This document shows, piece by piece, positions 12,001 through 33,000 of a stretch of DNA of 35,758 nucleotides (positions are counted from its first letter, which is position 1; each line of letters begins with the position of its first letter). A program made the translations under genes and the position numbers. The DNA is from Candidatus Omnitrophica bacterium UBA2593 (GTDB lineage Bacteria; Omnitrophota; Gorgyraeia; Gygaellales; UBA2593): contig DDKR01000153.1 of assembly GCA_002340085.1 (NCBI GenBank), forward strand, positions 1-35,758, written 5' to 3'. The notes beneath the pieces were generated by a model, which searched no databases, had not been told where the DNA came from, and worked only from the letters and a program-made list of their open reading frames with translations.

Positions 12001-15000
12001 TTATACTTCTTATACCTTTACTACCCAACGGCTCTTTACTACTATTGGAGAAATAGTCGGGGACTTAGAAAAGGAAGAAACTTATGCGAAAAATAACTTT
12101 TTAAAAGCACTAAATGCGATTTTGAATCCTTCTTCAAATTTTTCTTCACAATTAAATACTCAACTATCAGAGAAAAGTAGTCTTTTAACTGATGCTTCCA
12201 TTGTGGTTAAAGAAATAGATGAAGCTATCAGAGTAAATAAGATTGAGCTATCCTCTTCTCAAACCCAAGCTGTGCAAGATGTCTTAGCTTTAGCAGTTAA
12301 TCCCGTAGTAGACCTTGGTGATGACCATGAGCCTGTTTCATACGGATATAAGAGGTTACACCGGATTGCCCAAGGAAAGGCTTGGATTGAGTATCATCTC
12401 GGCTCTACGCAGAGTAAAGATTTCATCAGTAGGATGCCTTACTATGCTCAGGAATCGAGTGCTTGGATAGGAAGATACCTGGGAATAAATGAGAGTTGGA
12501 ATCCAGTTTTATTGAATCCGGTCTCCTGGATTCCAATCTCGAGAATAAGGAGATTTGTCCTTACCTATAAAGATCGGGGAGTAGAAAGTCTCTACAAACA
12601 AGCTTTAATAAATCCCGTAAAGTATGAGAGAAGCTTAAGAGATATTTCTCGGTTTATCTCTCCTGGACGACCTGATTACGCTTCTATTTTCTCCTCTCTT
12701 GTTCTTCCATCCGCATTTTTATCTTCCAAAGTACTTACTAGCTTAGGGTTAGGAGCAACCCTTTTAAGTTCTCCATTTATACTTGCACCTACAGCAGCTC
12801 TCTTAGGTTTAATTCCCGCTCATCTTTTAGCTAAATACTTAGCCGAACACTGGGGAAGAGATGATAATTTTGCCCGCATAAGTAAACAGTTAGATAATAT
12901 CACTGATAATAGGGAGTTAAGAGAATATCTCTTATCTTTGCGTTTAGCAGCCCAAAGAGCTCGGGAAGAAAATCTCAGCCAACTTTCTCAGTGGAAGAGG
13001 GTTCCTCAGTCTTTGCGTCCTCTTTCTCCTTTTGGTTCTTTCTATACTAAATTAGATAAGAGAGAGTCAGCAAAGAAGCCTTTTGAAGCCACAGTAGCTG
13101 AATACTATACTCCTGCTTCTTATGCTCCTCGATTATCTACTACTGAAAAGATAAAGAGAGTTCATGAGTTTTTTAAGGGAGTAGATAGCAAGAGAGCAGA
13201 GAAATTTAATTTAAAAGAACTTATTGAATATCTCCAACTTTCTCCCGGAGAAAAAATCCATAAATTCAATAAGTATTTTAAGCTTGATTTTACAGAGGAG
13301 TGGAAAGAGATCCAGGAAAAATCAGAGCAGAAAAGATCTTCCTTAGCTACAGTTAATCTAATAAAACAGGGACTCTTTAATGAAAAAGAGAGAAGGTTTT
13401 CTCTTCTACAGGTCCTCGCTGCCACAACTGAACCTATCAAGCAGGCAGATTTCAATTTTATTACAAAGAGTTTTCAGCTCCAAGGTAGACTTTCAGAATC
13501 TAGGCCTAAGAACGATAAGGAGATCCAAACCAACCAAGAGATCATTAACTCTGCTTTAGAAGAGATTGTTTCTTTAGCCGACAAACTTAGTTTCAAACAA
13601 AGAAGAGAAGAGTTGTTAAGAGAAGCAAACACAGGTGAAGTAATTAGGAGGATAAATAAGATTCTGGAGGGTAATGAAGATTTTGGGAAAAAACTCCAAG
13701 CCATATATGAACTTTCTGCAGATGAAATTTTCAATTCATCAGAGCGCCAAGAAGCTTTAGAATATTTGTTACCAAAGCAAGCCAACCAATTACCAAATCA
13801 AGCCAACCAAAAGGTAGATTTATCTTCTTTAGAGCAAGCCCTGAACTTTCTTAAACAAAGTCTAAGATATGCTCAAGAAGAAGCAGAGAAGAGTATAAGT
13901 GATGATATGGTAAAAGCAGTATGTGAAAAGATGCCGGGGAAAAAACTCAAAGATCTTAAAAAAGAGTTAGAAGGTGATTTAAGCTACTCTATCTATAGTA
14001 TTCTTACCTCACAAAGTTCATCTGAAAAACCATTCCTTAAGAAGATTTCTCAGATCGAAGCTTTAGCTGAAATTACTGCTTCTGATTGGATCTATCACTT
14101 AAGAGCAAAACAGGAGATCCATAACTCGCTTAGAGAGGCTTCGAAAGACAAAGAAAATACCACATTAAAAAATATCCCTCAAGAAGATTTCCTCAAGTCC
14201 CTCACTGAAAAATACTACATCTCTCCTCAGCAGATCTCTTCCTTACGCCAGCTCTTCAGGGATTTTAAACATCTGCTTGAGATGCAATTCAAAGCCAAAG
14301 ATGAGAAGGATAATATTAATCTCTCTTTCTATGAAAAAGGTTATTATGAGGTTAGCCTACCACTCATAGAAGAAGTATCTAAAGAAGTTACTGGTTTGCT
14401 TAAGGATTGGGTAGAAGGTAAGAATTTAGATAAAATTTGCTCTTCTTCTGAAAAATTAAAGGAATTTCCTTCTCTCATTGAGAAGACCGCAGTCTTAAAG
14501 GAAAATTTAGCTACCTATGAGAAAGAATTAGGTATTCCTCATCAAAGAGCAATAGATTTCTCTAAGCAACCTCAAGAAGCTTTTGAGCTTTTAGGAATAA
14601 GAGGAGTCGAGCTAAAAGTAGATGAAAAAGTAGAAACAAGAAAGCTTCTTTTAGATAAACTTAATACCGCAATCCCCTTACGTGCCCAAGGACTCCTTCC
14701 TTTTGGAATAAATCTTTTACAAGTTTCTACGCCCCAAGAAGACCCTATCCTTCAAGAGATAGAAAGAGATCTCAGCAGTCCTATTCAACAAGACATTCAA
14801 AATAAAGTCTATGAGACTATCCTTCAATTCCCCCAACTAAAAAAGTATCTAAAAGATAAAGTCGATGATCCTCTGAGTGTAGATAAAGCGATGGAGAAGG
14901 TCAAAGAATTGTTCTCTGAAGGCAAGATCTCTTTAAAACTTGCTTCTTCTCATATCGATACAGTAAAACTCATTGATCGGACTACAGAAGGTAAGGGTTA

Positions 15001-18000
15001 TGAAGTATGGGTTCCTTTGGAAAGATTTCAGATTACTTTAGGTGAAGGAGGCAGATTCGGATTTAAACTGAGAGATGTAGGAAGATTAGAGGCTCGACAC
15101 GAGATATTAGGACACTTATTCGCTAAATTTTTAGGCATACCCTTAGGAGAGTCCAGAGATGCAATCTGGGGGTATAATGCTACTGAACAGGTAGCCTTAA
15201 CCCTTACCTCTGTCGATGCTATAGAGTGGGCGAAAAAAGGAAGAAGATTAACTCCTGACCAGATATCCTATATCCATGCAGTTACAAAGATCAGTCCAGT
15301 AACTCGACCTTCAAGATTGAGGTTCTGGTTAGAGAAACGTAAAAATTGGGATAATGAAAAAGATGCTTATATGGATTCGATGCGGTTATTTTATTTTGCC
15401 CAGGCAAAAGGTGATGATTCTCTTGCTGAAATTCTTTCCCATAAACTGTTAAAAGGATTTGGGAAAAAAGTTTCTCGTTTACCTTCACTTTCTTTTATAA
15501 GAGAGTATATTAACAGAAGAACTTCTTTTCTACCTCGACAGGGTTATAAAGCCTTCTCCCAAGGAGCAAAGAATACACTTGGCAAAAATGAAGGTACTAC
15601 ACCTATCGATGGAGAATGGATGAAATTAGAACCTCCTTCTTTGGCAAGATACTACTCTCTAAATTACCTTTCTTCATTCCATCCCCAAAAATCTGAACCT
15701 CCTTCTCTATTAGGTCCAGAAGGAGAAGATTCTCTCTATAAGGATTCTCTCTACTTAAATCAAAAATTAGATGAGATAGTTAAAGAAAAAGGAATTATTG
15801 AAGAAGTACTCAATGATGAAAATTTTAAGAAAAGAGTAAGAGAGAAAGCAGGTTATTATAGCCCCACAACATCAGCCTATTATGTAGAAACAAAAGGCAC
15901 CATCTTATACCGCGAGGGAAGAAATGCTTGGATAAGATTACACGAGATAAAACATGCCTTAGATGACATAGATTCTCCATACGGAAAACCCTCCCAAAAA
16001 CTAATAAATTTTTACCGTGAACTAAAATCCTTTTCTTTTGCTTTTGGACAGGGTGGAGATTTAACCGAAATAGAGGAGTCTTTAAGAAAATACGATAACC
16101 CCTTAGAGGACCTATTAGATTCACTCCTCTGCGAAGGAAAAACAGAGATATTTAGAAAAGACTTGAGTATAATTTTGAGACGTGCTGAAAAAAACCCTTG
16201 GTTTGATCAGATTAAGATCAATGGGTTTAAACAGGAGATGGGTTGGTCGGAAGGGAAATCGTCTTGGTCTATAGAAGAACTAAATAAGCCAGAGATTTTA
16301 AACCTTTTTGACAAGAGCGAGTTTGGTATAGCCACAGAACTCACTGCCTACATGTTCAATGGAGTAATCGAAGGAGATAAGGAGATTATTAAGTTTACTG
16401 ACTTCTTCTTAACCTGGCCTGAAGGACAAAAATTATGGAGAGATCACCTTGAGAAAATTGGCTTAGGTAAGATTGCTCAACTCCACATCGATCAAGTCCA
16501 ACAGAGAAAGAAGAAAGAAACTTCCTCTTCACCTTTTGTTCAATTAGGTATCCTTCAACAAAATCCTACTATAGGTATAGATAAGAATGGTAATGTCTTT
16601 GGTGGTGGTTATCCAGTTTGGGGACCATTTTATAATGAGGTATTAGAGCGATTAGGACAAATAACTCCTAAAATAGATAGGTATAGATCTTCTTCTTCAT
16701 TGTGCGAGGGGAAAAGAGAGAAGATTTTACTTACGGCTTTGGCAGGGATGTCCCCAGAAAATTTTAGAATTAATCCTCAGGATGATAATGATTCGGTGGG
16801 AAGAATTAGCTCTCAAATACCCACATCTGCCTCTCCTGTAGCCTTTAATAGGATTCTTGATTTGTTTGGAAGATATATCAATTCTTTTAAAAATTCTTTA
16901 ACTCTACCTGGCTCTTTAGCTAAGAAGGTGTATGATAGGTATAGGTTGGGTAAAAATAATAATGTAGAGAATATACTGAAGCAAGTTTTTAACAATCAAT
17001 TCTGGAAAGGAAAAGTAGAAATTCCAGAAAATTTACAGCGCCCCATTCTTCCTAATTTTGAATTTACCAAGATAATTCCAAATTTCCAGGAGTTGAAATT
17101 ATTAAATCTTACAGAACAAATAGAACAGATGAACCAAGGATTACTGTCCCTTTTTTCCTCTGTAGAACAAATGAATCAAGGAGTACCGCCTCTTCTCTCT
17201 TTGCGAATAAACCCTGATTCATTAGCGCAAAAAATAGCAGAGCTCAACATAGCAGAACTTAACAGAATAGCAGAGCTCAACATAGCAGAGCTTAACAAAA
17301 TAGCATCGCAAATATCGCAACAGAAGCCTATCTTCTACAGGAATTATATATCTTTTGGAAAATCTCCTGAAGAGAATGATGAAGTTGATTTCTATTCATT
17401 ACTATCTCAAGATAGATATTTTGGTGAAGGGTCCATTATTTCTAAATCCAGCATTCCTAAATTCGAGACTCCCGAAAGACTCAGGTTAAATACTACTAAA
17501 AGACAACTCCTATTTCCTGATTTTTCCTCTGTTACTCTATCAGGTCCTTCTTCTGCACATCATCTCAGTATCTCTGAACCAAAAAGAGGAACTAATTGGG
17601 CAAAGAGGAGCATAATAATAGGTTTACTTTTACTCTCTTTACTCCCTCTGAAAGATACTCCTAATAATAAATCAAACCTTTCGCCTTCTCTACTAATGCC
17701 TCCTTCCGTTGCTGATACCATTAAGCCCGAAGATATTATTTATACTGTTAAACCCGGAGATAGTCTCTGGAAACTTGCTAAGGAGCATTTTGGAGATGGT
17801 AGTGATTGGCGGAAAATTTTAGAGCTCAATCCCCAATTAAACGGTCGCTTAGGTAACCAATTAACACTAACTGGTGAGGAAAGAATAATAATTCAACCTG
17901 AAGAGCCAATTAAAATGCCCTCTCCAATTGGAAAAAGCTCAGTAGGTGTGGCATTTGTTGCCTCCTCTACATACATAGAAGTATCATTTACAGAGCAGTT

Positions 18001-21000
18001 AATGAGATGGATTGGAAAGGTATTATCACTAGTACTTGGCTTTGCTCCATTTCCATTAGGAATTATTCTTCCATCAGTGAAAATGAAAGGGGAGAAGGAA
18101 AGAGGAGTAGAGTTTGTTTCTTCCTTCCTCCCAATCTTTAATGATTCTCTGCTGGTTATTATGCTCGAGGAGGGAGCTAAGAGGGCAGTACTTCCGCTTA
18201 TCACTGAAGCCACCCCTATTGATGGTCTATCTTATCTCTTAATCAATGAAAAGAAAGAGTTTAGAAGAACGCTTACTACCCCCAGATCAACAACAGAAAG
18301 ATTTGAAGGTGTTGCTTTGCCACCTTACTCTATTATTTCAATCCCTGCACTCTTTAATATGGTGGCATTATCTCTTCTGAACTTTATTCCTAAACATAAT
18401 ATCTTAGGCGTCAACAACCTTTCTGGTTTTCTCTTACCAGTATTAACTGCACAGAAGAGAGATCAACGTTCTCTATCAATGGAGCAGCAGCGACTTGGAG
18501 TCTTGGAAATGGCTTTAGGAGCCCTGTTGTTAGCTATGATGAAAGCCTCTTCTTCATTGACTAATAGGCTGCTGGTGGTGATGTTCAATAGAGATAGTTT
18601 GCCGACTCCTCAAGGAGATTCTCAACAGAACCAACGGTCACAACGGCCAATTGGAATGCCACCTACAGGATCATCATCAATAAATGTAGGTGCAGTGGTG
18701 GGGAGTAGGAGTCAATCGACACCAGCACCATCAGAAATTAGTACAAGTCCATTAGATCCCAGTAAATTGGCTCAGATTGAAGATATAATAAACACTCTGC
18801 GATCTTTCATTGGAATGATATTAATGCGTGCTGGACCCATAAGTTCTGCGACAGCGTCATCTTGCGCAGACGCTCAGTCGCAAATAATAGCGCAAAATTT
18901 AGCTGTAATAGCTGTAATAATATTAGCTATATTAGGGAAGTGGAATAGATGTGAAGGAACCGGGAATACCCAAGGTCTGCCTGTAGGTGCAGATAGTCGA
19001 GGTATAACTGGAGATTCCGGAAAGAACTCTAAAAACAGATTCCGAGGTTCCAGTAGTGCGATTTTAGGTGAGCGTATAGCGGATAGCGTAGAGGATAGAG
19101 CAAGTATAAATACGTCTTCATCTCTAAATAATAGACCTCAGAAAGATCTCGCAGGAAACCATAGTTCCCTTAGTCCGCCTATACAGAGAAATGGTTCTCA
19201 AAGCTTAGGTAAATGGTCTAAGTTAATTATTCCTGAACTTGTCAGTGGGTTTAAGCGTCTTATTAATATAATTCTATCCACTCTATCCACAGAACCCCAG
19301 CGCCATTTTTCCAATGTTCTATCTGCGGTGGCAGTTTCAGGATTAAAAGTTAATGAGAACCTATTTCAGGCTACCATTCCTCCAGGAATTTTTGGGGGAG
19401 TCTCTTTAGCTATCCTTGGTTTGTTATTCATAGCAACGCTTGTAGGAATTGCTTATATAATTTTCAGCGCCAAGCCCCCAGCACAAAGTATTGGGGGAAA
19501 TACTTCTCCGCCATCTACTCTGAAAACTCAAGGTGTATATGGATATTCAAGGAATCCTCTATATACACTCTATCTTCTCTTGGCGGCGATTCTTACTATA
19601 TTTGGAATAGATGGTTTTGCTGAAGGGAAAGCTTGGGAAGGAGCCATCCTTATAGGTGTTGCAGTCTTCCTTACTCTTCCTTCTCTATTTTACCTTCCAA
19701 AAGAAGAGGGTGAATTACTATCTAAGTTTGAAGAGGCGTATAAAGAGTATAAAGAAAAAGTTCCACGTTTTGTCTCAACAAAGGTAGCGATTTGCACCTG
19801 CTCCATTTTATTATTCTTACTCTTAGGAACACTTGGTTGGTTAGATAGATGGGTTGATTCCATTGTTGATTTTATTACTCTGACCGTGACATTATCCTTG
19901 TTCACCTTATTCCCGTTATTCCTGCCAAGAATAACCACATCCTCATCTACAAAATTAATGGAGAAGGACTCCAATCAGATTAATGACTCTCCTCGGGCAA
20001 ATTCACCACTTACTATCTCCAACCTTGCCAGAAATTCAGTTCATCATCTAATTTTTCAGTTTAAAAAGATTCTTTTTGTGATTGTGATATCGTTTAAATT
20101 GCTAGTATCCGGCTATAATTTTGCTGTTCCTAATGCATTCTCGTCTCCTCCATCTGTTCCACCCGCTCAAGTACAAGTAGTAGAACAATTTTCTATTTGT
20201 GAGGCTTTAGGAGAGATAAGACAACTTGAAGGAATAGAGGTAGTTTATCTTGATGAAAAGAGGGTTTGGATTTTGATTAAAGAGAAGGGAAATTTAGAAG
20301 AATTAAAGCCAAAGATAGAAACTTTACTTAATAAGACAGGGTTATTCTGGAGAGGAGAAGAAGAAATTAATCCTGTCCCATTCAGATACATCTTTACAGT
20401 ATATCCCAATGTAGAAAAGGAAGAATTAGAGGTAAAGATAAAACCAAGGAATAACACGGTGGTTATTATTCAAGGAGAGTGGGCAGTGACTAGTGCTACT
20501 GATGAAAATTACAAGTTAGCTACTTGGGGTCTTGGTTCGTGTATTGGTGTATTGATATACAATCCTACTACTAAGATTGCGGCCATCACCCATGTTGATT
20601 TCGAAAATGCAGTCTTTTCTACTGTAAAAGAGATGCTTCTTGCAATAAGGACTGAAGGAAAAGATGAGATTCAAATATGGTTCACCGATAATATAGGTGA
20701 AATGGAAAAAACAGTAATCATCAGTCAATATAATTTGGACTATCGAGGTGATTTGCCGCGATCATTCGTGTTTGATACCAGAAACAGCGGACTTAGAAAA
20801 CTTTCAGAAGAGGAGATTAAAAGACTTGCCAACGATGAAACTTTAGATAAAAGACTAGGTCAAATAACCGATAAAAGAATAAAGAATTCAATTACATCTT
20901 GTATAGAAAGGTATGATGGTACTTCGTCTCCAATAACAAAAGGAAGGAGAACTTCTAAATCCAGAGGTCCCCAAAACGAAAGAAATCTTTTGTCCAGCAG

Positions 21001-24000
21001 AGGAGGATCTTCTAGTGCGATTGAGGTTGGGAAGAAAGGGATAGAATCGCTGTTGAATGGTAGAAGCACGCTATTTTCTTATTCTAATGAGCAAAAGAAA
21101 TCTAACCAAAGAAGTTGTTCTCCTCTTCGCGGTCCACCCAAAATTGGTGGAATTGGTAGCCTCGTCTCAACAGTTCTCGCCACCATCCTATTACCCGCAT
21201 TAATACCCCTTGCAATCATTGCTGGATTATCTTCCATTATTTCTGGTCTAATAGTTCAAAAAGGAATAATCAGTCTACCATTTCTCTTTGGGCTCACCGT
21301 GGAAGTCTCAAGAGAGATGGTTTTTGTTGCAAATGGGGTGTCCGTAGGAGTCCTAACCTCCAGGATGGCCCCTTCTACGGACCCCATTGCAACTATTATA
21401 GGAGGTGCATTATGTGTCCTATCAAGTTTGATAAATTACAGTTTGACCATATTGTCGAGTTTACCAATGATAATACTATCTTTGCTGCAGCCCGCCAAAA
21501 CAGTAGTCATAACAGCAATGGCCACCTTAGGCTATTTCTTATTAACCAGTCCACTGGCAATGTTTATTGTCGCAATGGTTGTGCTGATTCTTGGGAACAG
21601 CTTAGAGGCTCTACCCGTGATACCGTTATTGCTCAACTCATCGCTGCTCGCAACAACCATATCCCAGTCTATAGAATTAACGGGGGAGGGCTTCAATCGG
21701 ATTGAAGCCCCTTCTCCAGTTCAACCTGCTCTTGAAACCACCTCCAGTTCGATACAAAAGGGATCCCAGTTGAGTTTGTTTAAGAAAATATCTTCTGTCA
21801 AGAAAGGGAAATCTTATCCTTTTATAATTGCAGTAATACTTCCCATTCTTACATTTTTCCCCATCGTCAATACTTACCAACAATATAAGGTTAGCTATCT
21901 AAGAGATAAGGAGGCAATAGAGAAACTATTAGAGGAGAAATCAGATTTGCTTCATTATTATCATTCACATTTATCTTTTTCTAACATCCGTAGGATTTTG
22001 AAAATATGGATCAATTCTCTTTATCAAAATTCTGAACAAAAGAGAGAATTTCTAAAACATCTTTATAGATGTAAGTCTGTTGAGGAGATCATAGCTAATG
22101 ATAAATTGCCTGCCTTGATAAGGCTTTATGTAGGAGGGTTTATTAAAGGCGATGTATATGGCAACCGCTATCAATTATATCCAATAGCAAAACAACTCTT
22201 AAAGGAGACAGAAGATGAGAATATGTGGAAGTTACTTGCTTATCATAATAAAGTTACATCTCTTGGGAAAGTTACATCTCTTGGGTATAAGAGTATATTG
22301 TGTGATGATATAGTAAGAACTTATAGTCTTGCAGTGTTATTAATAATCGACCAAGAAATTCTAACAATTACAGAAGAAAAATTCCTAACAGCTATGGAAT
22401 ACATAAGATCTGCTCAGGTGTGTGGAGAAGCTCAGTCTTATATAATCAGAGCAAATAGAGAGTTAGTATTTGGAGGCAAAGAAATAGAAAAAGATAGGAA
22501 TATTAAATTCTTCTCAGGAACGATTGCTCATGAGATAGCACATATAATTGCTTATTGGCCCATCGAGGTCAGAGAAGTCGATGAATTCTTCGCAGATTTA
22601 GTTATGTTTGTCTTCTTCGAAAAAATGGGTTGGAAAGAAGATATTTGGATGTCTCAGCAAATGGTAAATTATAAGGAGGCTGTAGAATACGCTAAAGATA
22701 ATGGATGGGTAGTAAATAAGAAAGAACCACATACTATTGCGCGCACACAATTAAAGGTTATAGAAGATGCTATTAGAGAATATGAGGGCGAGGTATCTTG
22801 GGAAGAGATTCTTAAAGCTGCTTTAGATCCACGTTGGACGGATAAAAATCGCAACCGGTCGATAAATAATGGCTTAAATCTTTTCAGAGGTAATTCTATT
22901 GGCGATCTGTTAAACTCGAACTTAAAAAAGAAAATAACAAAGCGAATAGCTCAGTCTTATCCAGAAAAAGACTCTCCTATTTGGATAATAGCTAACCATA
23001 TGCTGGATGAAATCCTGAAAGATAATCACAAAAAGGATAGTATTGGAGAAAGGACAGGATATGGTAAGGTTAGGATTTATCGACCTCGAAGTAGATATAA
23101 AATAACATATAAGCAGGAGAAGGACGCAACAGTAATAATAAAGACAGATAGAGTAACTGGTAGTAAGGTAATTTCCCGCTATCCTACTAAGCCTATTCAA
23201 TACAGGAAGTCAAAGAATAAACCCTTTAGCTCTTCTCCTGTCGATACTTGGGCTATCGCTATAGGTTATGAAGGATTAGCTGGATTGTTTAATGGAATAA
23301 TTGATCTATTAAACCAACTATCTCTCTTATGGCTTGCCGTGGAGGCCTTAGGAGAGATGGTTTTTGTTGCAAATGGGGTGTCCGTAGGAGTCCTAACCTC
23401 CAGGATGGCCCCTCCTACGGACCCCATTGCAATTGGAGGAGGTGCATTATGTGTTCTATCAAGTTTGATAAATTACAGTTTGACCATATTGTCGAGTTTA
23501 CTAATGATAATACCATCTTTGCTGCTGCTCGGCAAAATGGTGGGTATAACGGAAACGGGCATCTCAGACTATTTCTTATTAATCAATCCACTGGCAATGT
23601 TTATTGTCGCAATGGTTGTGCTGATTCTTGGGAGCAACTCACTGGTTCTACCCGTGATACCGTTATTGCTCATCTCATCGCTGCGAAGAACAACCACATC
23701 CCTGTCTACAGGATTAATGGAAAGAGCCAGCAGTAGTCTACAGACCCAATCTACTTCTTCGCCACTGCACATTTTAGTCTTTGGCCCAGAACATTTAGCC
23801 CCGCAAATAAAACGCAAGATTAAAGAGAGATTTAAACAGATTGAGATTACCACCGTCGGAAATTATAATAGCTTTTTAGTAGACTTCGGTAAAAATAGAT
23901 TTCAGTTACTTATTATCGACGGTGTTACATTAAGTGTTACATTAAGTGAAAAAGGAGAAGTATGGGAGGAACTCGAAAGATTAATTAAAAAAGTAGTTGA

Positions 24001-27000
24001 GAAAAAGAGCAGACCAAGGATTATTATTCTATGTAGTAAAGATCTTGAACAGAAGATAGAGAAACTTAAGGAAGAGCATTCTTTAAAGATTGTATTTGTG
24101 GAGGACTATCCAGCGGGGAGCAATGTAAAAGGGTTTCTTGAAAGAATAAGAGAAGAACTGCACTTAAAAAAAGTAAGTTCACCACTGGTTAAGAATGTTT
24201 CTATTCCGATAGATGTGCGGTTAACTAAGGAGAATAGAAGGGATAGAATAGAAGCAATTATGGGCTCGCTGGGAGGATCAATTTTAAGTTTAAGTTTTCT
24301 TTACCTTCCGTGGCCGGTGGTGAGAGGATTTTTCTTCTCAGCGGGCCTAAGAAAATATCTTGCTCTATTCACTAGGAGTCCATCTCTTACATTCGCTTGT
24401 TTAATAACTGCTTCCATCTTCCTCACTTCAATCATATTCTTAGTTCTCAATTCTCAACTATTAACTGGACTTTTAACCCCGCCACCTATCTTAAGAGCTA
24501 CCGTGGCAGTTGTCTTAGGATTGATGGCTTTTGTTGTAATTTGGGAGAGGTTGGCAGTCCTAAACCTCCAGGAGACGGCCCCTGTCAACCTCCCTATTAC
24601 AACTAATACAGGAGGTAAAGAAGGAATTCAAACTGAGACTCCCAATCTTATTACCTCCAATCATGCTACTTTATCAATTAAGTCTATTATCTCCAGTCCA
24701 GTGGCTTCGCCGCTCATTACCTCCAGCCCTACCATGACAGCCTATACTTTAAGAAAGGCAAATAATTTAAGGGAGGAAGATTCACCACTCACCACCCCCA
24801 ACCTTACCATTTCCAGCTCTGTTACCTCATTTGAGGAATTTCTTGCTGGTATAAAGAAGTTAGAGGAGTGTCTGAAGGTTTTAGAGGAGTATTTAAAAGG
24901 AGCCCTTATTCCTACTATAGAAAAGACTACGAGAGAGATAGTAGATATTTTCAATAATCCCTCCTTTAAAAAGACATTAAGCAAATTTTTAAACGAGGAA
25001 ATCACCCATGAAATAAAGGCTGACTTGACTATAGTATGTGGGTATTGCCAGTTACAGGCATCAGAAGAAGAGAAAGAGCGTTCTATAGAAAAGCTCAATT
25101 CAATAAAAGCGCGCTTGATTGAAGTTAAAATAAAAGAAATTCTTTCACATTTTTCTTCTAGAATGGGATGGAGTGTTTTGATTTTGGCAGAGAATACCCA
25201 GAGATTAGAAGAACTTAAGGCGACATTCTCAAAATTAGGTGAATCAGAGTTAGTAAGTAAGACAGAAGAAATAATAAGAATTTGTAGACAAGAAGTCACC
25301 CTTCAACAGAAAAGCGAGTCTTACCTCGAGGCTACAGAGATAATTAACTCCATCCAAGATAAGCTTTCACCCGAAGGAAGTCAAATTGAACCCTCCACAG
25401 CTCAGACAACTTCACCACTCAAGATTGCTTTTAGTCCAATGGGTTTGTTGTCAGTTAGAGTCAAAAGAGATATAATAGGAGCAATTGTGGGTCTGCTGGG
25501 AGGAATTTTAGGTTTTTTCTACCTCACGTGGCTGGTGGGGAGAAAATCTATCTTTCCAGCGGGCCTAGAAAAATATCTTGCTTTACTTATTCACAGTCCA
25601 CCTCTTACATTCAGCTGTTTAGTAGCTACTTTCATCCTTCTTAACTCAATAAACTCAATAGATCTATCTCTAATCCCATCCTCAATCTCCAATCCTCAAT
25701 TATTAATTGGATTCTTAACCCGGCCACCTATCTTAAGAGCTACCGTGACAGTTGTCTTAGGATTGATGGCTTTTGTTGTAATTTGGGAGAGGTTGGTAGC
25801 CTTAACCTCCAGGATGGCCCCTGCCAACCTCCCTATTACAACTGATGGAGGAGACAAAATTTCTTATTATTCCTTGAGGAATACTGTAGAGAGAGAGCTT
25901 AAAGAGAAAAGGCTTGATTGGTATTTTATCTTCAGGAGGATTAAAGACCAAGGTTTTTCAGCTGCTTCGCCTATCAGGATAAAGAATGTGGTAATAATAG
26001 GAGTTCTAATAGTAGCATCACTTTTTGGGTTGTTAAAGTGCAGGGATTTTTTAAGAAAGCAGGATGAAATGCTTGAGGCAATGGAGATTCTTCGGGAAGG
26101 AAGAGAATCCACTTTTGGTCCGAGTTTTGGCGTGCTTTCACCAGAAGCCTTAAAAGAATTGATAAACTCCAAAACCTCTTATTCTCATCCAAGGTCGGTT
26201 ATGGAGTTGGTAGATAAATTGGCTTCTCTCTTTGGTGTATCTCCTACTGATGAACAAAGGTATGATTGTTTACTGAAGATTCAGACGATGGAAGGAAAAA
26301 TCAACGGATACAAAGGTTATATTTCAGAATTAGAAAGACGCTTTGGTTTACCTTCTGGGATAATGGGTGCAATTATAAGAGCAGAGATGTTTGGCTTAGC
26401 ACCTTTTGAAGAATTCACTGATTCTATAGGAGGGGTACTTACAGGAAAGACTTCTATAGGTCCTACTCAGGTGAGGATAGATACTGTGCGGATGTTATAT
26501 CCAGAGTACAGAAAAGCTTCTAACTTCAGGATTACTCAACTTCTTCAGGATGATAAATTTGCCCTTGAAGCAGGAGCAAAATATATACAGTGGTTAGTTA
26601 AAAAGATGGGGTTAGATCTTAAGAATTCTGGAGATCGGTTAAGGCTTTGGGTTGCTTATACAGCAGGACATCAATCACCGGCTTTTAAAGAAATCAGAAA
26701 ACCTCCATTTAGAAGAAATTTTAAAAAGGAAGATTGGGTTGCCAATGAAGCATGGGCTTATGCCTATGTAGCGGAAGCATTTTGCCGATACTTATCTACA
26801 CGGGCTTCTTCTGAGGCCTCTTCATCTTCTGTGGCTGATGAGAAGAAATCTGTTTTCTTAAAAGGATGTCGTGCAGTTAGAATCACCAGTTTAGCATCAG
26901 CAATTTCATTTTTAGGAACAATTCCTTTATTTACTCCTTTGGTGTCTTTTGCTACGGTATTGGCGGTGGGGATAGCTGTTTATTATGGGATGAAGAAGAT

Positions 27001-30000
27001 TGTTGGGTTTGTTAAGGTTGGTTTGGTCTTTAATCCTCAGCAAAACTCAAGGAAAGATGAGCTTGACGAGACTGGAGTTGGAGCTGAGATTAAAGAATTA
27101 ATTGATAAGTTTGGGAGAGTGTTGGAGGAAGTTCTAATAGGGAGAGGAGATAAATATTCTGAAGATATTTTTGCTGAGCAGTCTGAGGTAGCTTTATTGG
27201 TTCAGTCTACAAAGCAAGTAGTAGAGATTGCTTGTTCTAAAGGTAAGACATATATCTTAGCTTTAGCAGCTCTAATCAAATACCGTACAACGGGTATTCC
27301 TTCCTTGGCCTTTGTTCCTGCTTTTGGTTTAGGTTTAGATGCCTTTGAGAAACACAGGATACATCAGATATTAGGTAAGGTTGATCCTAATTTTAAGGTG
27401 GGTTTGGTAGATTTTGCTGAGGGAAAGGGTAAAATCTATGATGGGGATGGCGAATGGAGAGAAGTTAGTATAGCTGAAGTTTATAGCAAGTGTGGTTTGG
27501 TCTATAGTACAGTAGAAGATACAGTGCATAATTATTTAAGCGAGCATCTATCCCGAGAAGATAGAGACTTAGCTTTAATTACTCGCAAATGGTGGGTATT
27601 CTTTGATGAAGTGCATTTGACTTTGTTGGGTGAGCGCTTAGGAAACCCATTTGTTATCTCTGAGATGACCAAGCAATATTCAGAAGTTGTAGAAGAAGCC
27701 AATGATATAGCAAGAGAACTTTATGAGTTAGTGGAAAAAAATGGGGCTCTTCTGAAGAGCGAATATCATAGGATAGATGAGAAGGATAGGAAGGTAAAAC
27801 TTACTAGAATAGGAAGTAAATTTGTAAAAGAAAGACTTAAAAAGACAAAGTTATTGAGAAATCGGGGTAATTGGAAAGACTTTGTAGATACTGCCTTATG
27901 TGCTTGGTTCTGTTATAAAGAAGGTAGAGATTATCTTCATAATCCTGGTTTACCAGAGGGAGAAGAGATTTCCATCATTAGAGAGAGTGGAGAGAGAGGA
28001 AAAGAATCTTACAGCCATGGTTTACATCAGGCAATTCGTGCTAAACACGGCTATAACCCATTCAGAGATGGAAAGACTATTGCCTCAATTATGTTAATGG
28101 GTTTCCTAAGTGATCTGGAAGTGGTAGAAGGTTACTCAGGAGTGAGCGGGACCATAGATAGAGAAATGGCAAATGCTTTAGGATTAGGGGTTCAGATTAT
28201 TGAAGAAAAAGAGAAGCCAAATATCGTTCAAGAAGGATTTATTCGGATGTCAGTAAAACCAGATATTCAAGGATTGGTAGAGATTGTAGTAGAAAAAGTT
28301 AAGAGAGGACAGCCGGTTTTAATAAGGGTAGAAGATATTTCTCGGGTTGAAAAGGTAAAGGAAGCTTTAAAGGTAGAAGGCCTGGAGATAGAAGTGAAGA
28401 GTTTAGATGCCAGGACTGAAGCTGGTGAGAGACAGAGAATCCTTGAGAGTGCAGGTAAACCAGGAGCAGTTACTGTTGTTACTGCTGCGGGCAATACAGG
28501 TATAGATATCAGTCTTATGGAAGAAGCGATTGAGAAAGGCGGTTTGACAGTTATAGCGTTTGGCCTCTTGGAAGACAGATTGCAAGAGATACAACTGATG
28601 CGACGGGCAGCAAGGAGGGGAGAACCGGGAGAGTTTATTGTTTTCGGTTCACTTGAAGATAGAGTAGTAAGGCTTTATGCTAAGGATTATATCCCGGTGG
28701 CTAAAGGAATTTTAGAGAGAGCAGCAAAAGGTGATAGAAAAGCTCAGATTAAAGTTAGAAAAGTGGTTATGCAATTGCGTAAGACAATTAAAGATGCGAG
28801 ACTTCAACAGATCAGAAGGAGAGTTAAGATAGAGCAAATGATTACCCAAGCTTGGCAGAGGCGTTGTAATTTGAGAGAGAACATTAAGAATGGTTTGCTG
28901 GTAGAGGCTGTGGCGAAACTGATCGGTGTAGAGTTGAATGAGGAGAAGAAAGAGCAATATCAACAAGCAGCTTTAGAATTACTAGATAGGTATTGGGTTG
29001 AGTTTATTGCACGGTGCGATGAAGCAAGATATCAGCTGCTCAATAGATTTGGTTATGATTACACAGAGTGTCAAGGTATTCTGCAATTTCCAGTTGATTC
29101 GCAGTATATGAAAGAGGTAGGTAGATACACCGACGAGTTTATGTATTATACAGAAGCTAATACTTTCCTCTATATGTTGAAAGAAGCAGGAAAGAGTTTA
29201 GATGATTTGAATCTTAAGAGATCCTTCATTTACTGGTTTAAGAGAGTAAGGAATTTTGTTGTCCAAAAAAGTCCAGTTGTTATAGCTGCTGTAATTTTAT
29301 CCTTTGTAGTCTATGGGTTATACCGTCTGAGTTTTGGTTTATTTGGGCTTATCTCAACTCCTACACAACCCTCTGGTTTTGCCCGGGTTTTGATTGATTT
29401 TATTGTTAGTCTGTCTGCTCTTAATCAGGTATCATTGGTTGCAATCATAGTGATTGCGATGGTCTTTCTCTTATTCATTAATCGCAACCTTATCTTTCCG
29501 GCTTTAGCTAAAGACAGAAGCGAAAACTCGTTATCCGATGCTCTGTTTGGAATAAAGACAGAAAACCAGAATTTGACTTCATTCTCCCTCGCAGTTTACA
29601 AGAAGGTCTATCCAGTTATTGCACAGATTAGTACAGGAGTATCTCTAGTTATATTCGGCTTGTCTATTTTCACTGGTAGTAATTTGCTACTGAGTACAGT
29701 AGCATTTATCTCTATCTTCGCTTTAGGACTAGCTTTAATTACTTTGAGTGATTCAGGGTTAAAGGCATATATAAGACAAAATAGGATTTCTCTGCCATCT
29801 ACCTTGTTTGGGAGTTACGCTTACTATTTTGCTTTTAGTATCTTGGTTTATCTGGGAGTAATCTTTGGATTAGGTTATTTTGGCATTACTCCTGTGGTTA
29901 TGGATATGAGTATCTATTTGAGTATAGTTATCTTAGGGGGTGGGCTCCTTGCTTATTTCATCTATATGATGAATCAGTATTTGGATAGACGGTTTAATGA

Positions 30001-33000
30001 TAAACCCAAGGAAGTAGAACGAGATGTCGCTTTTGCTGGCATATTAGGAAGTGGTGCTTTGGCGGGCTTACTTATACATCTCCAAGAGATGGAATTACTT
30101 ACCCCTAATACTATTTCTACTATTTACGCTTCAATTTGGCCGGCGGTTCAGTTAACTGTAATATTAATGTTTCCACTCGCCTTGGTTGTTTTAGGTAAAC
30201 TTATTTTTGGTATTACGCGTGCTCAGATGTTGGGTGAAAAGATAGTAGAAAATGACGGTGTGGTTTTGAAGAGAGGTTTTTCGGAGAGTGTAAGGGAAGT
30301 CTTAAGATTAAAGCATATCAAGACTTGTATTGGTGTGGTTTTACGGGCGTTGATAATAAACATTATTCCTACCAGTATTATTTTTGGTGGTCTGCTTTTC
30401 TTATGGAAGATCTATACTGATACAAATATCGCCTTGGGGCTATTAAATACAATTACTCCTTACTCTTTAATAATAGCAGGAGTTGTTTTGATTATAATTT
30501 TAGCAACTTTAGCATTTAGTCCTAAAAAGGTAAGTGTAGCAACTGGTACAGTGTTAGGTGTGGGTGCAGTAGGGGGTATGACTATGGTTCAACAACAGAC
30601 AGGGCAAATGATCGAATTTAAAGCCTATTGTGCTGAACTCTTCGGAATTTCTAGAGAAGAATTTAAAGATCCGCGGGTAAGGATAGCCGTAGAAGAAATG
30701 AGAAAAGAGATAGAAAGATTAAAATCAGCCACTAATGATTCTTCTAAGTCCGGAAGAACTACTACAGCTGGAGGTACGCAAGGTAATCAGACTACAAATG
30801 ATCCAGATAAGACTGAATCATCTAAAGTTAACTTACAAGAGCCTCCAAGAGGGGGAAAGATTGAACCACTGAAAGAAGGTCCAGGTAATACCTTCTCAAA
30901 AGAAAATCCTCACAATAAATCTCCACCAAAATCTCAAAGTAAATCCTTCCTACAAAAACTCACTTCTTCTCTCAAAGAGAGTTTGAATTCTTTGAGTAAT
31001 CTTTTCATACCTTCTCTTAATGCTGAAGAAATAGATAACTTCCACAGCACCAGAGTTTATACTGAGAATACCACCCCAGGAGTGGAAAGAGAAGATTGTC
31101 TTTCTTTACAAGAGCCAGTTAAATGGCATCTTCCAATTAAAGTTCCTTATACTCTAACCAATGAAGGTAAATTTGGTGCTTCCAGAGATAGAGATGAACT
31201 TAGTGAACCAGGTTACGGTAAGCCAGATGAGATACCTCATACTGGCCTTGACTTCTGTGTTCCAAAAGGAACGCCTATATATGCAGCTTTAGAAGGCGTG
31301 GTTATCTTTAGCGGTGAACTTAATGGCTATGGAAAGACAATAATCATCAAGCATTCAGAGGGATGTTATACCTTATATGCTCATAATCAGGAAAATTTAG
31401 CTAGAGAAGGAGAGAAAGTCTCTCAGGAGACAGTGATTGCTAAAGTCGGCCGGAGTGGTAATGCGGGACAAGTTGGAGAGATGCTTCATTTTGAAGTAAT
31501 AGAGTCAGAGGTTGAGCTAAGTAATTATCAGGGATTAAGAGAGACATTGGCTACGGGAAAAGCAAAATATCGCAATCCTGAGGAGGTATTGGGATTGACT
31601 ATTTCTGATCGGGTAGTGGAAAATGGTGATTTAACCTCAACATTAGAAGAAAAAGCGGAAAGCTTGAGGGAACTTTTGAATTCAGGAATAGAATATTACA
31701 ATCAAGGAGATTTTAAGACTGCTATAACGATTTTCAGTGAAGGCATTAATTTAAACCCTTCCTTCTCTGAGGGGTATTTTTGGCGAGGAGCTACTTATTA
31801 TCATTTAAAGCAGTATTATGAAATGATAGAGGATTTTAAAAGATCTGAAGAGGTTAAAGAGACCAAACGGGAAATAGTATCTTCTTACACAAAAGGAGAA
31901 ATTCTTATATATAATAGTGGTAGAGTTCTTGAGGGAGGAGATCTCCAAATCAAATCAGAAGAGTTATTTTCGAACTATTTATTTTCGAGTGTTTTAATTG
32001 AAGATGCTAAAAAATGGATAGAGAGACTAGAATCAGCTCGTCTTCAAAGTAATATTTCTAAACCAGAGGAGAAAGAAGGGCCGGTTATTTTCGTATTGGA
32101 TAAAGGTGTGAATGCAGATCTTGTTGGGGGTTCAATTAAAGGTATAGGGAATAAAGGAGATTTAATAACCTGGTTAAGTCATGGCACTTTTGTAGCAAAG
32201 GTTATTCGTGATCTGTCTTCAGCTGAGATTATATCTATTGACATAACGAGACAATCAAAGACAGGCCCCCTTTTCGTTACAGATACAAAGAAGATTTCCC
32301 AATCTCTGATTCAGATACTCGCCTATATGAAAGAGAATCCCAGGGTAAAGGTAATAGTAAATATTTCTTTCAGTGGATCTTTTGGAGACTTCAATGATCT
32401 TTTAGATGTAGTCTTAATGCAAGCTATTATCCAACAAGGTGGAGTTATTGTTGCAGGCGCAGGGAATGAGGGCACTTCTTTATCTCGAATATCCAGGTAT
32501 CCTGTTTGTTATCCGGGTGTTATTGGGGTAGGCGCGATTAAAAAATCAGGAAACAAGGCCGATTATAGCAATTGGTCTAATGGCCTTCTCGTTGCTCCTG
32601 GGTGGATTAATGGGAGTGAGGAATGGAAAAATTTAACCAAAGAAGAGTACGGATGCGATATTGAAGAAATATATGGTACTTCCTTTAGTGCTCCTTATGT
32701 TGCTGGTCTAATTGCTAAGATATGCGAAGAATTTGGGTTCACACCTCAGCAGGCATATAAGATTATTGAAGAGACTGCAGAGCCTTTAAAAGTTTTTGAT
32801 AATTCCCCGAATTATTTCTTGAAAAAAGTTGATCCTTTCCGAGCATTAAAAAGAGCAAGAGAAGAGAAATATTCCAAACCCGCATTGGAAAGGGTCGGAT
32901 CATTATTTAATTTTCTCTTTCCACCACCTCTTTATGCTACAGGAGTAGATAATTCAACTACTACAGAACAACCTAATCTTAATTTCAAACCCGTATCGGA

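What the first reader, a model, noticed from the sequence alone, without database searches (positions are those of the whole stretch)
23438..23736. Second copy of the nested ORF: differences are 24 synonymous versus 8 replacement codons in the -1 frame, showing purifying selection on the nested frame
I aligned 21412-21705 with 23449-23736 codon by codon over the first 91 codons. Twenty-four codons differ only at the frame-1 third position and are silent (e.g. acc/act, gca/gct, cgc/cgg, cac/cat, agg/aga, cag/caa, cca/cct, tat/tac). Only 8 codons change the amino acid (P3S, S31G, S32G, H33Y, S35G, R65T, Q75H, R80K). Each frame-1 third position is a frame-2 second position, so every one of those silent changes alters the giant-frame residue. 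One example is TAMATLGY versus TETGISDY, which introduces charged residues. The nested frame is therefore the one under protein-level selection here. Even so, about 30 substitutions introduced no frame-2 stop in either copy. The 3-nt indel between hairpin and SD also preserves both frames. The two copies use different stop codons (TGA and TAG).
Basis: seen in the sequence. Interest (0 to 1): 0.9.

Follow-up and report, generated by a model that had tools for sequence, protein, structure and literature searches.

The report
Small gene hidden inside giant gene
A roughly 95-residue protein gene with its own ribosome-binding site and a conserved folded RNA leader sits out of frame inside a giant (over 35 kb) bacterial gene; both reading frames are kept intact, and the same arrangement recurs in dozens of Omnitrophota genomes where gene callers never report it.

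Summary
Over 91 aligned codons, copy 1 (21412-21705) and copy 2 (23449-23736) differ at 24 silent and 8 replacement codons. dN/dS is 0.08 in the nested frame and about 2 in the giant frame.

The giant frame is open over all 35,758 nt. Given the nested protein and local codon usage, it would stay open across a nested ORF by chance only about 1 time in 2,000.

The nested protein belongs to an unannotated family of about 90 residues (188 clusters at 50% identity). In 42 of 43 species-level loci, almost all from Candidatus Omnitrophota, it lies inside a giant ORF, always in the frame one nucleotide behind it (giant = nested +1).

Each copy has an ATG, a GGAGG Shine-Dalgarno sequence usually 6 nt upstream, and an in-frame stop further upstream. 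A two-hairpin RNA element precedes it, with very strong covariation and no Rfam match.

More distant relatives are free-standing small genes between large ORFs. The nesting therefore probably arose when flanking ORFs fused across an older gene.

The function of the protein is unknown. It is a real, conserved, dual-coding nested gene that I could not find described in the literature I searched.

The parts
2..35758 (+). Part of a giant ORF (codons start at 2, 5, 8...). It is open over the whole window: 11,919 codons and no stop, running off both ends.
   Evidence: Pfam hits in this frame: LysM, SecA_PP_bind, P-loop_SecA, Helicase_C, Peptidase_M23, Peptidase_S8, TPR.
19885..19983 (+). Relic of a third nested-ORF copy. 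The C-terminal ~32 residues are recognisable (RDIILVHLIPVIPAKNNHILIYKINGEGLQSD*). The upstream part is broken by stops in the nested frame, while the giant frame stays open.
   Evidence: Repeat family D6 and translation.
21259..21411 (+). Leader RNA element 1: hairpin H1, then hairpin H2 (21324-21395), then the Shine-Dalgarno sequence AGGAGGTG (21400-21407).
   Evidence: Covariance-model hits, single-sequence folds, sequence.
21412..21705 (+). Nested ORF copy 1: 97 aa, ATG start, TGA stop, reading one nucleotide behind the giant frame.
23299..23448 (+). Leader RNA element 2: H1, then H2 (23364-23435), then AGGAGGTG (23437-23444).
23449..23736 (+). Nested ORF copy 2, the finding itself: 95 aa, ATG start, TAG stop, 88% identical to copy 1.
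24463..24624 (+). Solo H1-H2 element (H2 at 24534-24602) with an SD-like AGGAGGT but no nested ORF after it. Its stems differ from elements 1 and 2 through compensatory changes.
25705..25861 (+). Second solo H1-H2 element (H2 at 25776-25841), with no nested ORF.
27716..28621 (+). SecA-like module of the giant protein (SecA_PP_bind, P-loop_SecA, Helicase_C). It lies downstream of the nested genes, as it does in four other loci.
   Evidence: Conserved order in L002, L008, L009 and L045.

Best explanation
**What it is.** This is a genuine, independently translated small protein gene. It belongs to a soluble ~90-residue family with no annotation. The gene is embedded on the same strand as a giant Omnitrophota-type gene, reading one nucleotide behind the giant frame.

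**Shown:**
- The nested frame evolves under strong purifying selection.
- The giant frame across it evolves almost freely at the amino-acid level but is kept free of stops. This is achieved mainly through pyrimidine-ending nested codons.
- Every copy has an ATG, a strong Shine-Dalgarno sequence usually 6 nt upstream, and an in-frame stop further upstream. The protein is therefore made by internal initiation, not by frameshifting.
- A conserved two-hairpin RNA element (H1 and H2) on the sense strand precedes the Shine-Dalgarno sequence.
- The unit lies upstream of the SecA-like module of the giant protein.
- Distant relatives of the small gene are free-standing genes between large ORFs.

**Inferred:**
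- The nesting arose when flanking large ORFs fused by reading through an older small gene. One free-standing relative has the junction TGATG, where loss of the TGA would give exactly the phase seen in the nested loci.
- The giant-frame stretch over the nested gene is a translated spacer. Its only requirement is to carry ribosomes through.
- H1-H2 is a cis-acting leader controlling internal initiation. It could slow or space giant-frame ribosomes, or mask the Shine-Dalgarno sequence through its ACCUCC loop, which resembles the anti-Shine-Dalgarno sequence.
- The small protein is an accessory factor made next to the membrane and SecA-like part of the giant protein.
For: - Window copies: 24 silent and 8 replacement codon differences, omega 0.078 in the nested frame versus 2.06 in the giant frame.
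- Other genomes: 39 further pairs give nested omega 0.01-0.31 and giant-frame omega 0.65-9.6.
- Giant frame: 0 stops in 11,919 codons.
- Stop avoidance: the probability that the giant frame stays open across the nested ORF is 0.0005 for each window copy. It is 0-0.022 in all but one of 40 copies, with a maximum of 0.078. Nested third positions are T .32 C .40 A .14 G .14 against an expected T .36 C .24 A .23 G .18.
- Family: 35 close homologues of 89-99 aa with an invariant Met1, and 188 representative clusters in the profile search.
- Conservation of the arrangement: in 42 of 43 genome loci, almost all labelled Candidatus Omnitrophota, the ORF lies inside an ORF open over the whole fetched locus (up to 6,755 codons), always with giant = nested +1. 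The same holds in L001-L007.
- Translation signals: ATG in 40/40, GGAGG in 37/40, spacing 6 nt in 32/40, and an upstream in-frame stop 6-255 nt away in 40/40.
- RNA element H1-H2: 52 covariance-model hits, all on the + strand. Of the pair cells, 93.9% form standard pairs, and 42 of 44 pairs show compensatory changes. The covariation score is 0.683, against 0.191 in shuffles (0 of 500 reach it) and at most 0.10 in slid controls. G-U plus U-G pairs number 174 against 25 A-C plus C-A, which points to sense-strand RNA.
- Independent search: a metagenome scan seeded only with the H2 loop motif gave 4 loci with a true H2 hit. Each has the nested gene just downstream and a giant frame open over the whole locus. 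A fifth locus (L081) carries the motif beside a partial nested gene at a contig end but gave no covariance-model hit.
- Structure: the AlphaFold2 model is confident (pLDDT 84).
- Free-standing relatives.
- Gene order: the SecA-like module lies 0.7-7.3 kb downstream in L002, L008, L009 and L045, and 3.4 kb downstream of copy 2 in the window.
Against: - There are no expression data of any kind, so translation of either frame across this stretch is inferred from sequence evolution only.
- The function of the protein is unknown. There are no Pfam, NCBIfam, PHROGs or PADLOC hits, no PDB sequence hit, and no significant Foldseek hit.
- The pairing between the H2 loop and the Shine-Dalgarno sequence cannot be tested by covariation, because both sequences are nearly invariant.
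- H1-H2 also occurs without a nested ORF and in tandem arrays. Its role may therefore not be limited to the nested gene.
- A decayed copy in the window shows that extra copies are dispensable.
- The fusion origin rests on a few distant homologues (profile E 1e-5 to 1e-12).
- Pair counts come from alignments fitted to the covariance model. The loci are phylogenetically related, not independent. Some Nei-Gojobori pS values are saturated.
Confidence: 0.8

Rival explanations
1. The unit (H1-H2 hairpins with or without the small ORF) is a selfish palindromic cassette. It copies itself within giant genes and is tolerated only when it keeps the host frame open. The small protein would serve the element, for example as a new kind of transposition or homing factor, and not the cell.
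For: - The window holds two intact copies, one relic and two solo hairpin elements within 6 kb.
- Hairpin elements form tandem arrays in L012, L016, L020, L031 and L044.
- The duplicated segment in the window is delimited almost exactly by H1 and the end of the ORF.
- Public contigs often break inside the hairpins.
Against: - There are usually only one or two nested genes per 20 kb. Across 703 kb of loci, nearly all hairpin hits lie just upstream of a nested gene.
- The relative frame is always the same, and where the SecA-like module could be detected it lies downstream of the unit.
- The two window copies are each other's closest relatives (88% versus at most 75% to any other), as expected for a local duplication.
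- There are no transposase, nuclease or recombinase signatures.
- Distant relatives are ordinary free-standing genes.
Confidence: 0.1
2. The nested frame is reached by programmed -1 ribosomal frameshifting from the giant frame. The product would be a truncated giant protein ending in the small domain, and the hairpin would be the frameshift stimulator.
For: The nested frame is the -1 frame of the giant ORF, and a strong hairpin lies nearby. In window copy 1 the nested frame is open for 84 codons upstream of the ATG.
Against: - All 40 copies have an in-frame stop 6-255 nt upstream of the ATG, often between the hairpin and the Shine-Dalgarno sequence.
- Met1 is invariant, and the Shine-Dalgarno sequence sits at canonical spacing.
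- The hairpins lie upstream of the ORF, not downstream of a slippery site.
Confidence: 0.03
3. The functional product here is the giant-frame peptide (hydrophobic, transmembrane-like in this window). On this view the nested ORF and its apparent conservation are by-products of constraint on that peptide or on the RNA.
For: In the window the giant-frame translation of the nested region is strongly hydrophobic. Mean Kyte-Doolittle hydropathy is 1.25, about 2 sd above the simulations, and several 19-residue windows score above 1.6.
Against: - Giant-frame omega is about 1 or higher everywhere, while nested omega is about 0.1.
- Giant-frame hydropathy over the nested ORF ranges from -0.6 to 1.25 among loci and is often below the simulated mean.
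- Giant-frame identity between loci is only 27-49% in the blastp matches that include this stretch. The nested protein is 42-75% identical.
- An RNA structure cannot explain silent-site-only divergence over 270 nt.
Confidence: 0.02
4. The giant ORF is not translated through this region. The open frame would be kept for a reason other than making one polypeptide. For example, the transcript could be cut at the long hairpins, so that the small gene and the downstream part are expressed from processed RNAs.
For: - H2 is a ~25-bp duplex, the kind of structure cut by double-strand-specific RNases (own knowledge; not tested here).
- Whether giant transcripts or proteins are cleaved is stated as an open question in bioRxiv 10.1101/2023.11.21.568195.
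- The giant-frame peptide here is unconstrained.
Against: - Stop avoidance in the giant frame across the nested ORF in about 40 lineages implies that ribosomes read it.
- A cut would leave the upstream part without a stop codon and the downstream part without a start.
- No catalytic RNA or Rfam family matches.
Confidence: 0.05

Closest known systems
comS inside srfAB (Bacillus subtilis surfactin synthetase operon); comparison from my own knowledge
   Same: A small protein gene with its own ribosome-binding site lies out of frame, on the same strand, inside a very large multi-domain gene. Both frames are functional.
   Different: comS is 46 aa and confined to a narrow group of Bacillus. It has no conserved structured leader that I know of, and its host gene is an NRPS. 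Here the gene is ~90 aa and conserved in dozens of Omnitrophota genomes. It has a covarying two-hairpin leader and sits in genes longer than 35 kb.
Rz1 embedded in Rz (phage lambda spanin genes), and overprinted genes of phiX174 (B in A, E in D); own knowledge
   Same: A fully nested, out-of-frame, same-strand gene pair in which both products are made. In Rz/Rz1 the two products work together.
   Different: Those are compact viral genomes where overlap saves space. Here the host is a cellular giant gene. The overlapped stretch of the host frame appears to be an unconstrained spacer, not a functional domain.
Giant genes of Candidatus Omnitrophota (Seymour et al. 2023, PMC10066038; West-Roberts et al. 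2023, bioRxiv 10.1101/2023.11.21.568195; bioRxiv 10.64898/2026.06.07.730766)
   Same: The ORF is longer than 35 kb and has SecA-like, S8 and M23 peptidase, TPR and LysM domains and many hydrophobic segments. The homologous loci come from Omnitrophota MAGs.
   Different: Term searches for 'nested', 'overlapping' and 'reading frame' in the two bioRxiv papers, and for 'overlapping' in PMC10066038, found no mention of a nested gene in the giant genes. A separate library search for 'Omnitrophota' with 'overlapping gene' found nothing relevant. I did not search these papers for RNA-structure terms. [quoted passage not shown]
Rickettsia palindromic elements and similar in-frame palindromic repeats; own knowledge
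   Same: Hairpin-forming repeats sit inside coding sequence and are read through in frame. Solo copies and arrays occur.
   Different: Those elements are dispersed over many unrelated genes and carry no ORF. Here the element is tied to one small gene and one class of host gene, and it shows G-U-tolerant, sense-strand covariation.
Two-hairpin cis-acting antiterminator RNAs (HK022 put; EAR of Bacillus eps operons); own knowledge
   Same: Two adjacent stem-loops inside a long transcription unit. Processive antitermination would be useful for very long genes.
   Different: There is no sequence or Rfam similarity. The elements cluster only next to the nested gene, at least 21 kb into the ORF, and not near its 5' end. 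Nothing was tested for RNA polymerase binding.

Membership tests
Same-strand nested (out-of-frame) protein-coding gene pair | Both frames stay open over the overlap more than chance allows | tested here: met
   The nested open stretches are 181 and 143 codons in a frame that has 1,107 stops per 11,919 codons. P(giant frame open | nested protein, codon usage) is 0.0005.
Same-strand nested (out-of-frame) protein-coding gene pair | Purifying selection on the embedded frame | tested here: met
   Omega is 0.078 between the window copies and 0.01-0.31 in 39 pairs from other genomes.
Same-strand nested (out-of-frame) protein-coding gene pair | The embedded gene has its own translation start signals | tested here: met
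   ATG in 40/40, GGAGG in 37/40, spacing 6 nt in 32/40, and an upstream in-frame stop in 40/40.
Same-strand nested (out-of-frame) protein-coding gene pair | Both products are detected experimentally | not testable with these tools
   No transcript, ribosome-profiling or proteome data are available here.
Omnitrophota giant gene (SecA-domain-bearing type described in bioRxiv 10.1101/2023.11.21.568195) | ORF of tens of kb with divergent SecA DEAD and preprotein-binding domains, peptidases and many hydrophobic segments | tested here: met
   An open frame of at least 35.7 kb. SecA_PP_bind, P-loop_SecA, Helicase_C, Peptidase_S8, Peptidase_M23, TPR and LysM. Many hydropathy windows above 1.6.
Omnitrophota giant gene (SecA-domain-bearing type described in bioRxiv 10.1101/2023.11.21.568195) | The organism belongs to Candidatus Omnitrophota | tested here: inconclusive
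   The window carries no marker gene. Homologous loci are almost all labelled Omnitrophota; a few carry other labels on MAGs.
Programmed -1 ribosomal frameshift site | The nested frame is continuous with the host frame upstream, with a slippery site followed by a downstream structure | tested here: not met
   There are in-frame stops 6-255 nt upstream of the ATG in 40/40 copies, and the hairpins lie upstream of the start.
Any Rfam RNA family | Covariance-model match to H1-H2 | tested here: not met
   Only chance-level microRNA or sRNA hits with E of at least 0.17.
FG-GAP / beta-propeller repeat proteins | Pfam FG-GAP match in the nested protein | tested here: not met
   There is no Pfam hit for the nested proteins at E up to 1. 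The family profile only cross-hits FG-GAP repeats in a few long proteins over ~40 residues.
Dispersed in-frame palindromic repeat (RPE-like) | Many copies in unrelated genes, with no ORF of their own | tested here: not met
   In 703 kb of loci, hits cluster next to the nested gene. All four true H2 hits from the motif-seeded metagenome scan have the nested gene and a giant ORF. Whole genomes were not scanned.

The most novel reading that the evidence does not exclude
The H1-H2 RNA and the nested protein together form a dedicated cis-acting device that makes 100-kb-class genes expressible. The protein, made on the spot from the giant mRNA, would bind the hairpin arrays or the nascent giant chain. 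That would keep transcription and translation going, or hand the following SecA-like and membrane segment to the membrane. This would be a previously unknown kind of intragenic helper system specific to giant genes.
Probability: 0.15. Interest if true: 0.95.

Novelty: new variant of a known kind. Interest (0 to 1): 0.8.

Why it matters
- **Strength of the case.** Well-supported nested protein genes in cellular genomes are rare. This one is backed by about 40 species, omega near 0.1, explicit stop avoidance in the host frame, and a covarying RNA leader.
- **Invisible to annotation.** Gene callers do not report an ORF fully inside another on the same strand. The family is in databases only where a contig happens to break at the hairpins, and the window's own two proteins are absent from a 15-billion-protein collection.
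- **Relevance to giant genes.** It bears on an open question about Omnitrophota giant genes: whether they act as one transcript and one protein. It gives a concrete, testable internal landmark of RNA structure, internal start and small protein next to the SecA-like module.
- **A caution for topology models.** Some predicted 'transmembrane helices' in these giant proteins may be alternative-frame readings of a nested gene or of GC-rich hairpin stems.
- **Origin.** It offers a clear example of how an overlap can arise by ORF fusion across an existing gene, as opposed to de novo overprinting.

Tried and rejected
- **Protein family searches.** Pfam, NCBIfam, PHROGs and PADLOC gave nothing for the nested protein. 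The PDB sequence profile gave only chance hits.
- **Structure searches.** Foldseek against PDB and against viral models gave no hit with E below 0.02. The best PDB TM-score was 0.42 (BRICHOS, E 0.36).
- **Rfam.** Searches on the window and on two other loci gave nothing.
- **RNAalifold on a plain MAFFT alignment.** It predicted no structure, because the variable stems were misaligned. I replaced it with single-sequence folds and two hand-seeded covariance models.
- **Transmembrane idea.** I considered that the giant-frame peptide over the nested ORF is a conserved membrane segment. I rejected it because hydropathy is not conserved among loci.
- **Frameshift idea.** Rejected because of the upstream stops.
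- **Internal promoter idea.** There is an AT-rich motif 5' of H1, but no sigma-70-like site was found there in the window. This remains unresolved.
- **Motif phase test.** The conserved loop motifs are mostly read in one phase of the giant frame, with a minority in other phases. This supports an RNA-level constraint but is not decisive alone.
- **Apparent exceptions.** In L029 and L013 the giant ORF merely changes frame nearby, probably through an indel.
- **Metagenome motif scan.** Most hits were random. Only 4 of 80 loci held a real hairpin, and a fifth (L081) had the motif beside a partial nested gene.
- **Source of the window.** Look-up of the window's own nested proteins found nothing.
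Full report
**1. The observation**

Frame 2 of the + strand is open over the entire 35,758-nt window: 11,919 codons and no stop. Frame 1 has 1,107 stops, yet it contains two exceptional open stretches of 181 and 143 codons at 21160-21702 and 23305-23733. These hold ATG-started ORFs at 21412-21705 (97 aa) and 23449-23736 (95 aa).

- There are 24 codons with silent differences and 8 with replacements.
- Of the 37 nucleotide differences, 29 fall on the nested third position. The binomial P for this is 2.5e-8.
- Nei-Gojobori omega is 0.078 in the nested frame and 2.06 in the giant frame.

The stop codons (TGA and TAG), the 3-nt indel upstream of the Shine-Dalgarno sequence, and the quoted giant-frame peptides are all correct.

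**2. Is the open giant frame a matter of chance?**

I kept each nested protein sequence fixed and redrew synonymous codons from the giant gene's own codon usage. The giant frame stayed open across the nested ORF in 1 of 2,000 draws for each window copy. The range was 0-0.022 in all but one of 40 copies from other genomes, with a maximum of 0.078.

Nested third positions are depleted in purines. Observed values are A .14 and G .14, against an expected .23 and .18. C is enriched.40 against .24. This is what stop avoidance requires, because every stop codon has a purine at its second position, and the giant-frame second position is the nested third position.

**3. The arrangement is conserved in dozens of Omnitrophota genomes**

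- The nested protein has 35 close homologues, 55-75% identical, all 89-99 aa, all 'hypothetical', with an invariant Met1.
- A profile search finds 188 clusters at 50% identity, nearly all 80-110 aa.
- A scan of one genome per species found 43 loci, almost all from Candidatus Omnitrophota MAGs.
- In 42 of these 43 loci the small ORF lies inside an ORF that is open over the whole fetched locus (up to 6,755 codons), always with giant frame = nested frame +1. L001-L007 show the same.
- The two apparent exceptions (L029, L013) are places where the large ORF simply changes frame nearby.
- Across 39 sequence pairs, nested-frame omega is 0.01-0.31 and giant-frame omega is 0.65-9.6.
- In public assemblies the small gene is called only where a contig begins inside the upstream hairpins or is very short. 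The window's own two proteins are not in the 15-billion-protein collection.

The family has therefore been hidden by gene callers, which do not report an ORF fully inside another on the same strand.

**4. Translation signals**

All 40 copies start with ATG. GGAGG is present in 37 of 40, with 6-nt spacing in 32. All 40 have an in-frame stop 6-255 nt upstream of the ATG.

This means independent internal initiation. It excludes a conserved N-terminal extension or a frameshift fusion.

**5. A conserved structured RNA precedes the gene**

The ~115 nt upstream of the two window ORFs are far more alike than the ORFs' silent sites: 6 differences in 97 nt, against pS 0.45.

Across loci the region folds into two hairpins:
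- H1 has a GCCGC/GCGGC stem and an apical loop CCGUGGCAGG.
- H2 has a GUUGU/ACAAC base and a ~15-bp stem of variable sequence. Its apical mini-hairpin has the loop (C)ACCUCC, and its 3' internal loop is ACUGACC.

A covariance model of H1+H2 finds 52 hits in 703 kb, all on the + strand. Most lie just upstream of a nested gene or in short tandem arrays there. On the model-fitted alignment:
- 93.9% of pair cells form standard pairs.
- 42 of 44 pairs show compensatory changes.
- The covariation score is 0.683. Shuffles average 0.191 and none of 500 reach the observed value. Slid controls give at most 0.10.

G-U plus U-G pairs number 174 against 25 A-C plus C-A. This places the structure on the sense-strand RNA. 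Fitting to the model inflates such counts, but the margin is large, and the single-sequence folds agree.

Further observations on the element:
- The window holds four copies. Two precede the ORFs, and two are solo (24463-24624 and 25705-25861). The solo stems differ from the others through compensatory changes.
- The conserved loop motifs are mostly read in one phase of the giant frame, but in a minority of loci in another phase. Together with invariant 'silent' positions, this points to an RNA-level constraint.
- No Rfam family matches.
- A metagenome scan seeded only with the H2 loop motif gave mostly random hits. All four loci with a true hairpin hit carry the nested gene just downstream, inside a fully open giant frame. 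A fifth locus (L081) has the motif beside a partial nested gene at a contig end.

**6. The protein**

AlphaFold2 gives a confident small alpha/beta model: pLDDT 84, five strands, one helix, one strand. There is no significant match in PDB or in viral models, and no family in Pfam, NCBIfam, PHROGs or PADLOC. The family profile cross-hits FG-GAP repeats over ~40 residues. I treat this as motif resemblance only.

The proteins are soluble and near neutral (median pI 6.8, GRAVY -0.39). Internal Met is almost absent, and residue 2 is C, V, S, Y, G or A in all 37 aligned sequences. An A-starting second codon would create TGA in the giant frame (inference from the sequence).

**7. Context and origin**

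The giant protein carries LysM, a SecA-like module (27716-28621), M23 and S8 peptidases and TPR repeats. These are the features described for Omnitrophota giant genes. The SecA-like module lies 0.7-7.3 kb downstream of the nested gene in four other loci, and 3.4 kb downstream of copy 2 in the window.

Three observations bear on the history of the unit:
- A decayed third copy at 19885-19983 keeps the giant frame open while the nested frame is broken.
- Two loci carry two nested paralogues in tandem.
- The more distant family members P0161 and P0085 are free-standing genes between large ORFs, and the weaker hit P0180 lies between mraZ and a downstream ORF. In L052 the upstream gene's TGA overlaps the small gene's ATG as TGATG, and the +1 frame is closed.

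Loss of that TGA would give exactly the phase seen in all nested loci. I therefore infer that the small gene is older than the overlap. It was engulfed when flanking ORFs fused, and the giant-frame stretch across it is the young, nearly unconstrained part.

**8. Mechanism: what is shown and what is inferred**

Shown:
- Dual coding, with selection on the nested protein and on the openness of the giant frame.
- Canonical internal start signals.
- A sense-strand RNA structure.
- A conserved position upstream of the SecA-like module.

Inferred:
- The hairpins govern internal initiation in a translated ORF. They could pause or space giant-frame ribosomes, or mask the Shine-Dalgarno sequence with the anti-Shine-Dalgarno-like loop. 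This pairing cannot be tested by covariation, because both sequences are invariant.
- The small protein acts on the neighbouring membrane and secretion part of the giant protein.

Alternatives considered are a selfish palindromic cassette, RNA processing at the long duplex, frameshifting, and a functional giant-frame membrane peptide. They are weighed in the rival explanations. The last two are contradicted by the data.

**9. Comparison with what is known, and novelty**

The closest analogues are comS inside srfAB, and lambda Rz1 inside Rz (my own knowledge). These work like this arrangement, but neither is a homologue.

Term searches in the two giant-gene preprints and in Seymour et al. 2023, plus a separate literature search, found no mention of a nested gene in these ORFs. 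I did not search those papers for RNA-structure terms.

I rate this a new variant of a known kind: a nested gene conserved across dozens of Omnitrophota genomes, with its own RNA leader, inside giant genes.

**Caveats**
- No expression data are available.
- The loci are related, not independent.
- The null codon usage is taken from the giant gene itself.
- Some pS values are saturated.
- The taxon of the window is inferred from its homologues.

Noticed in passing
window 19885-19983: Decayed third copy of the nested ORF. The C-terminal ~32 residues are recognisable and end in LQSD* as in copy 1. The upstream part is broken by several stops in the nested frame, while the giant frame stays open.
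   Followed up: partly
window 24463-24624 and 25705-25861: Two solo H1-H2 hairpin elements without a nested ORF. They lie in ~320-nt repeats (24286-24620 and 25504-25860). Their stems differ from those of elements 1 and 2 through compensatory changes.
   Followed up: yes
window 21377-21637, 23426-23683, 24479-24568, 25724-25810: Strongly hydrophobic, transmembrane-like giant-frame segments coincide with the nested ORFs and hairpin stems. In other genomes the same stretch is not consistently hydrophobic. Some 'TM helices' predicted for such giant proteins may therefore be by-products of the other frame or of the RNA stems.
   Followed up: partly
L016 9746-9973 and L032 6865-7086: A divergent paralogue of the small gene (~76 aa, with its own AGGAGGTG-like site) lies immediately upstream of the canonical nested gene. 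Two nested genes therefore sit in tandem inside the giant ORF. L010 has a second copy 6 kb upstream (3662-3889).
   Followed up: partly
L012 9413-9930; L020 2224-2688; L044 9690-10454: Tandem arrays of 3-5 H1-H2 or H2-like hairpins with the same apical motif (CCCACCUCCGGGGACUGACCC in L012) but different stems.
   Followed up: partly
L001-L007 (positions 1-130): Public contigs begin inside the H1/H2 hairpins, 45-125 nt upstream of the small gene. This suggests that assemblies break at this repeated or palindromic element. Only in such cases was the small gene called.
   Followed up: no
L052 9960-10005: In a free-standing relative, the upstream gene's stop overlaps the small gene's start (TGATG). 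A GC-rich hairpin followed by a T-run lies ~40 nt upstream, inside the upstream gene.
   Followed up: no
window 22520-22570: Between the two nested copies the giant protein has an HExxH motif (GTIAHEIAHIIAYWP). This suggests a zinc metalloprotease-like domain, but there is no Pfam match.
   Followed up: no
window 22253-22288 and 23925-23948: Perfect short tandem duplications in the giant ORF: an 18-nt unit AAAGTTACATCTCTTGGG x2 giving KVTSLGKVTSLG, and a 12-nt unit GTTACATTAAGT x2.
   Followed up: no
5' flank of H1 in most loci (e.g. L041 9853-9872; window 24463-24482): A conserved AT-rich motif (AAUUUAnAUUU) lies directly before AACCCAGCCGC. It could be a -10-like box, a spacer, or part of the RNA element. 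The window scan found no sigma-70-like site there.
   Followed up: partly
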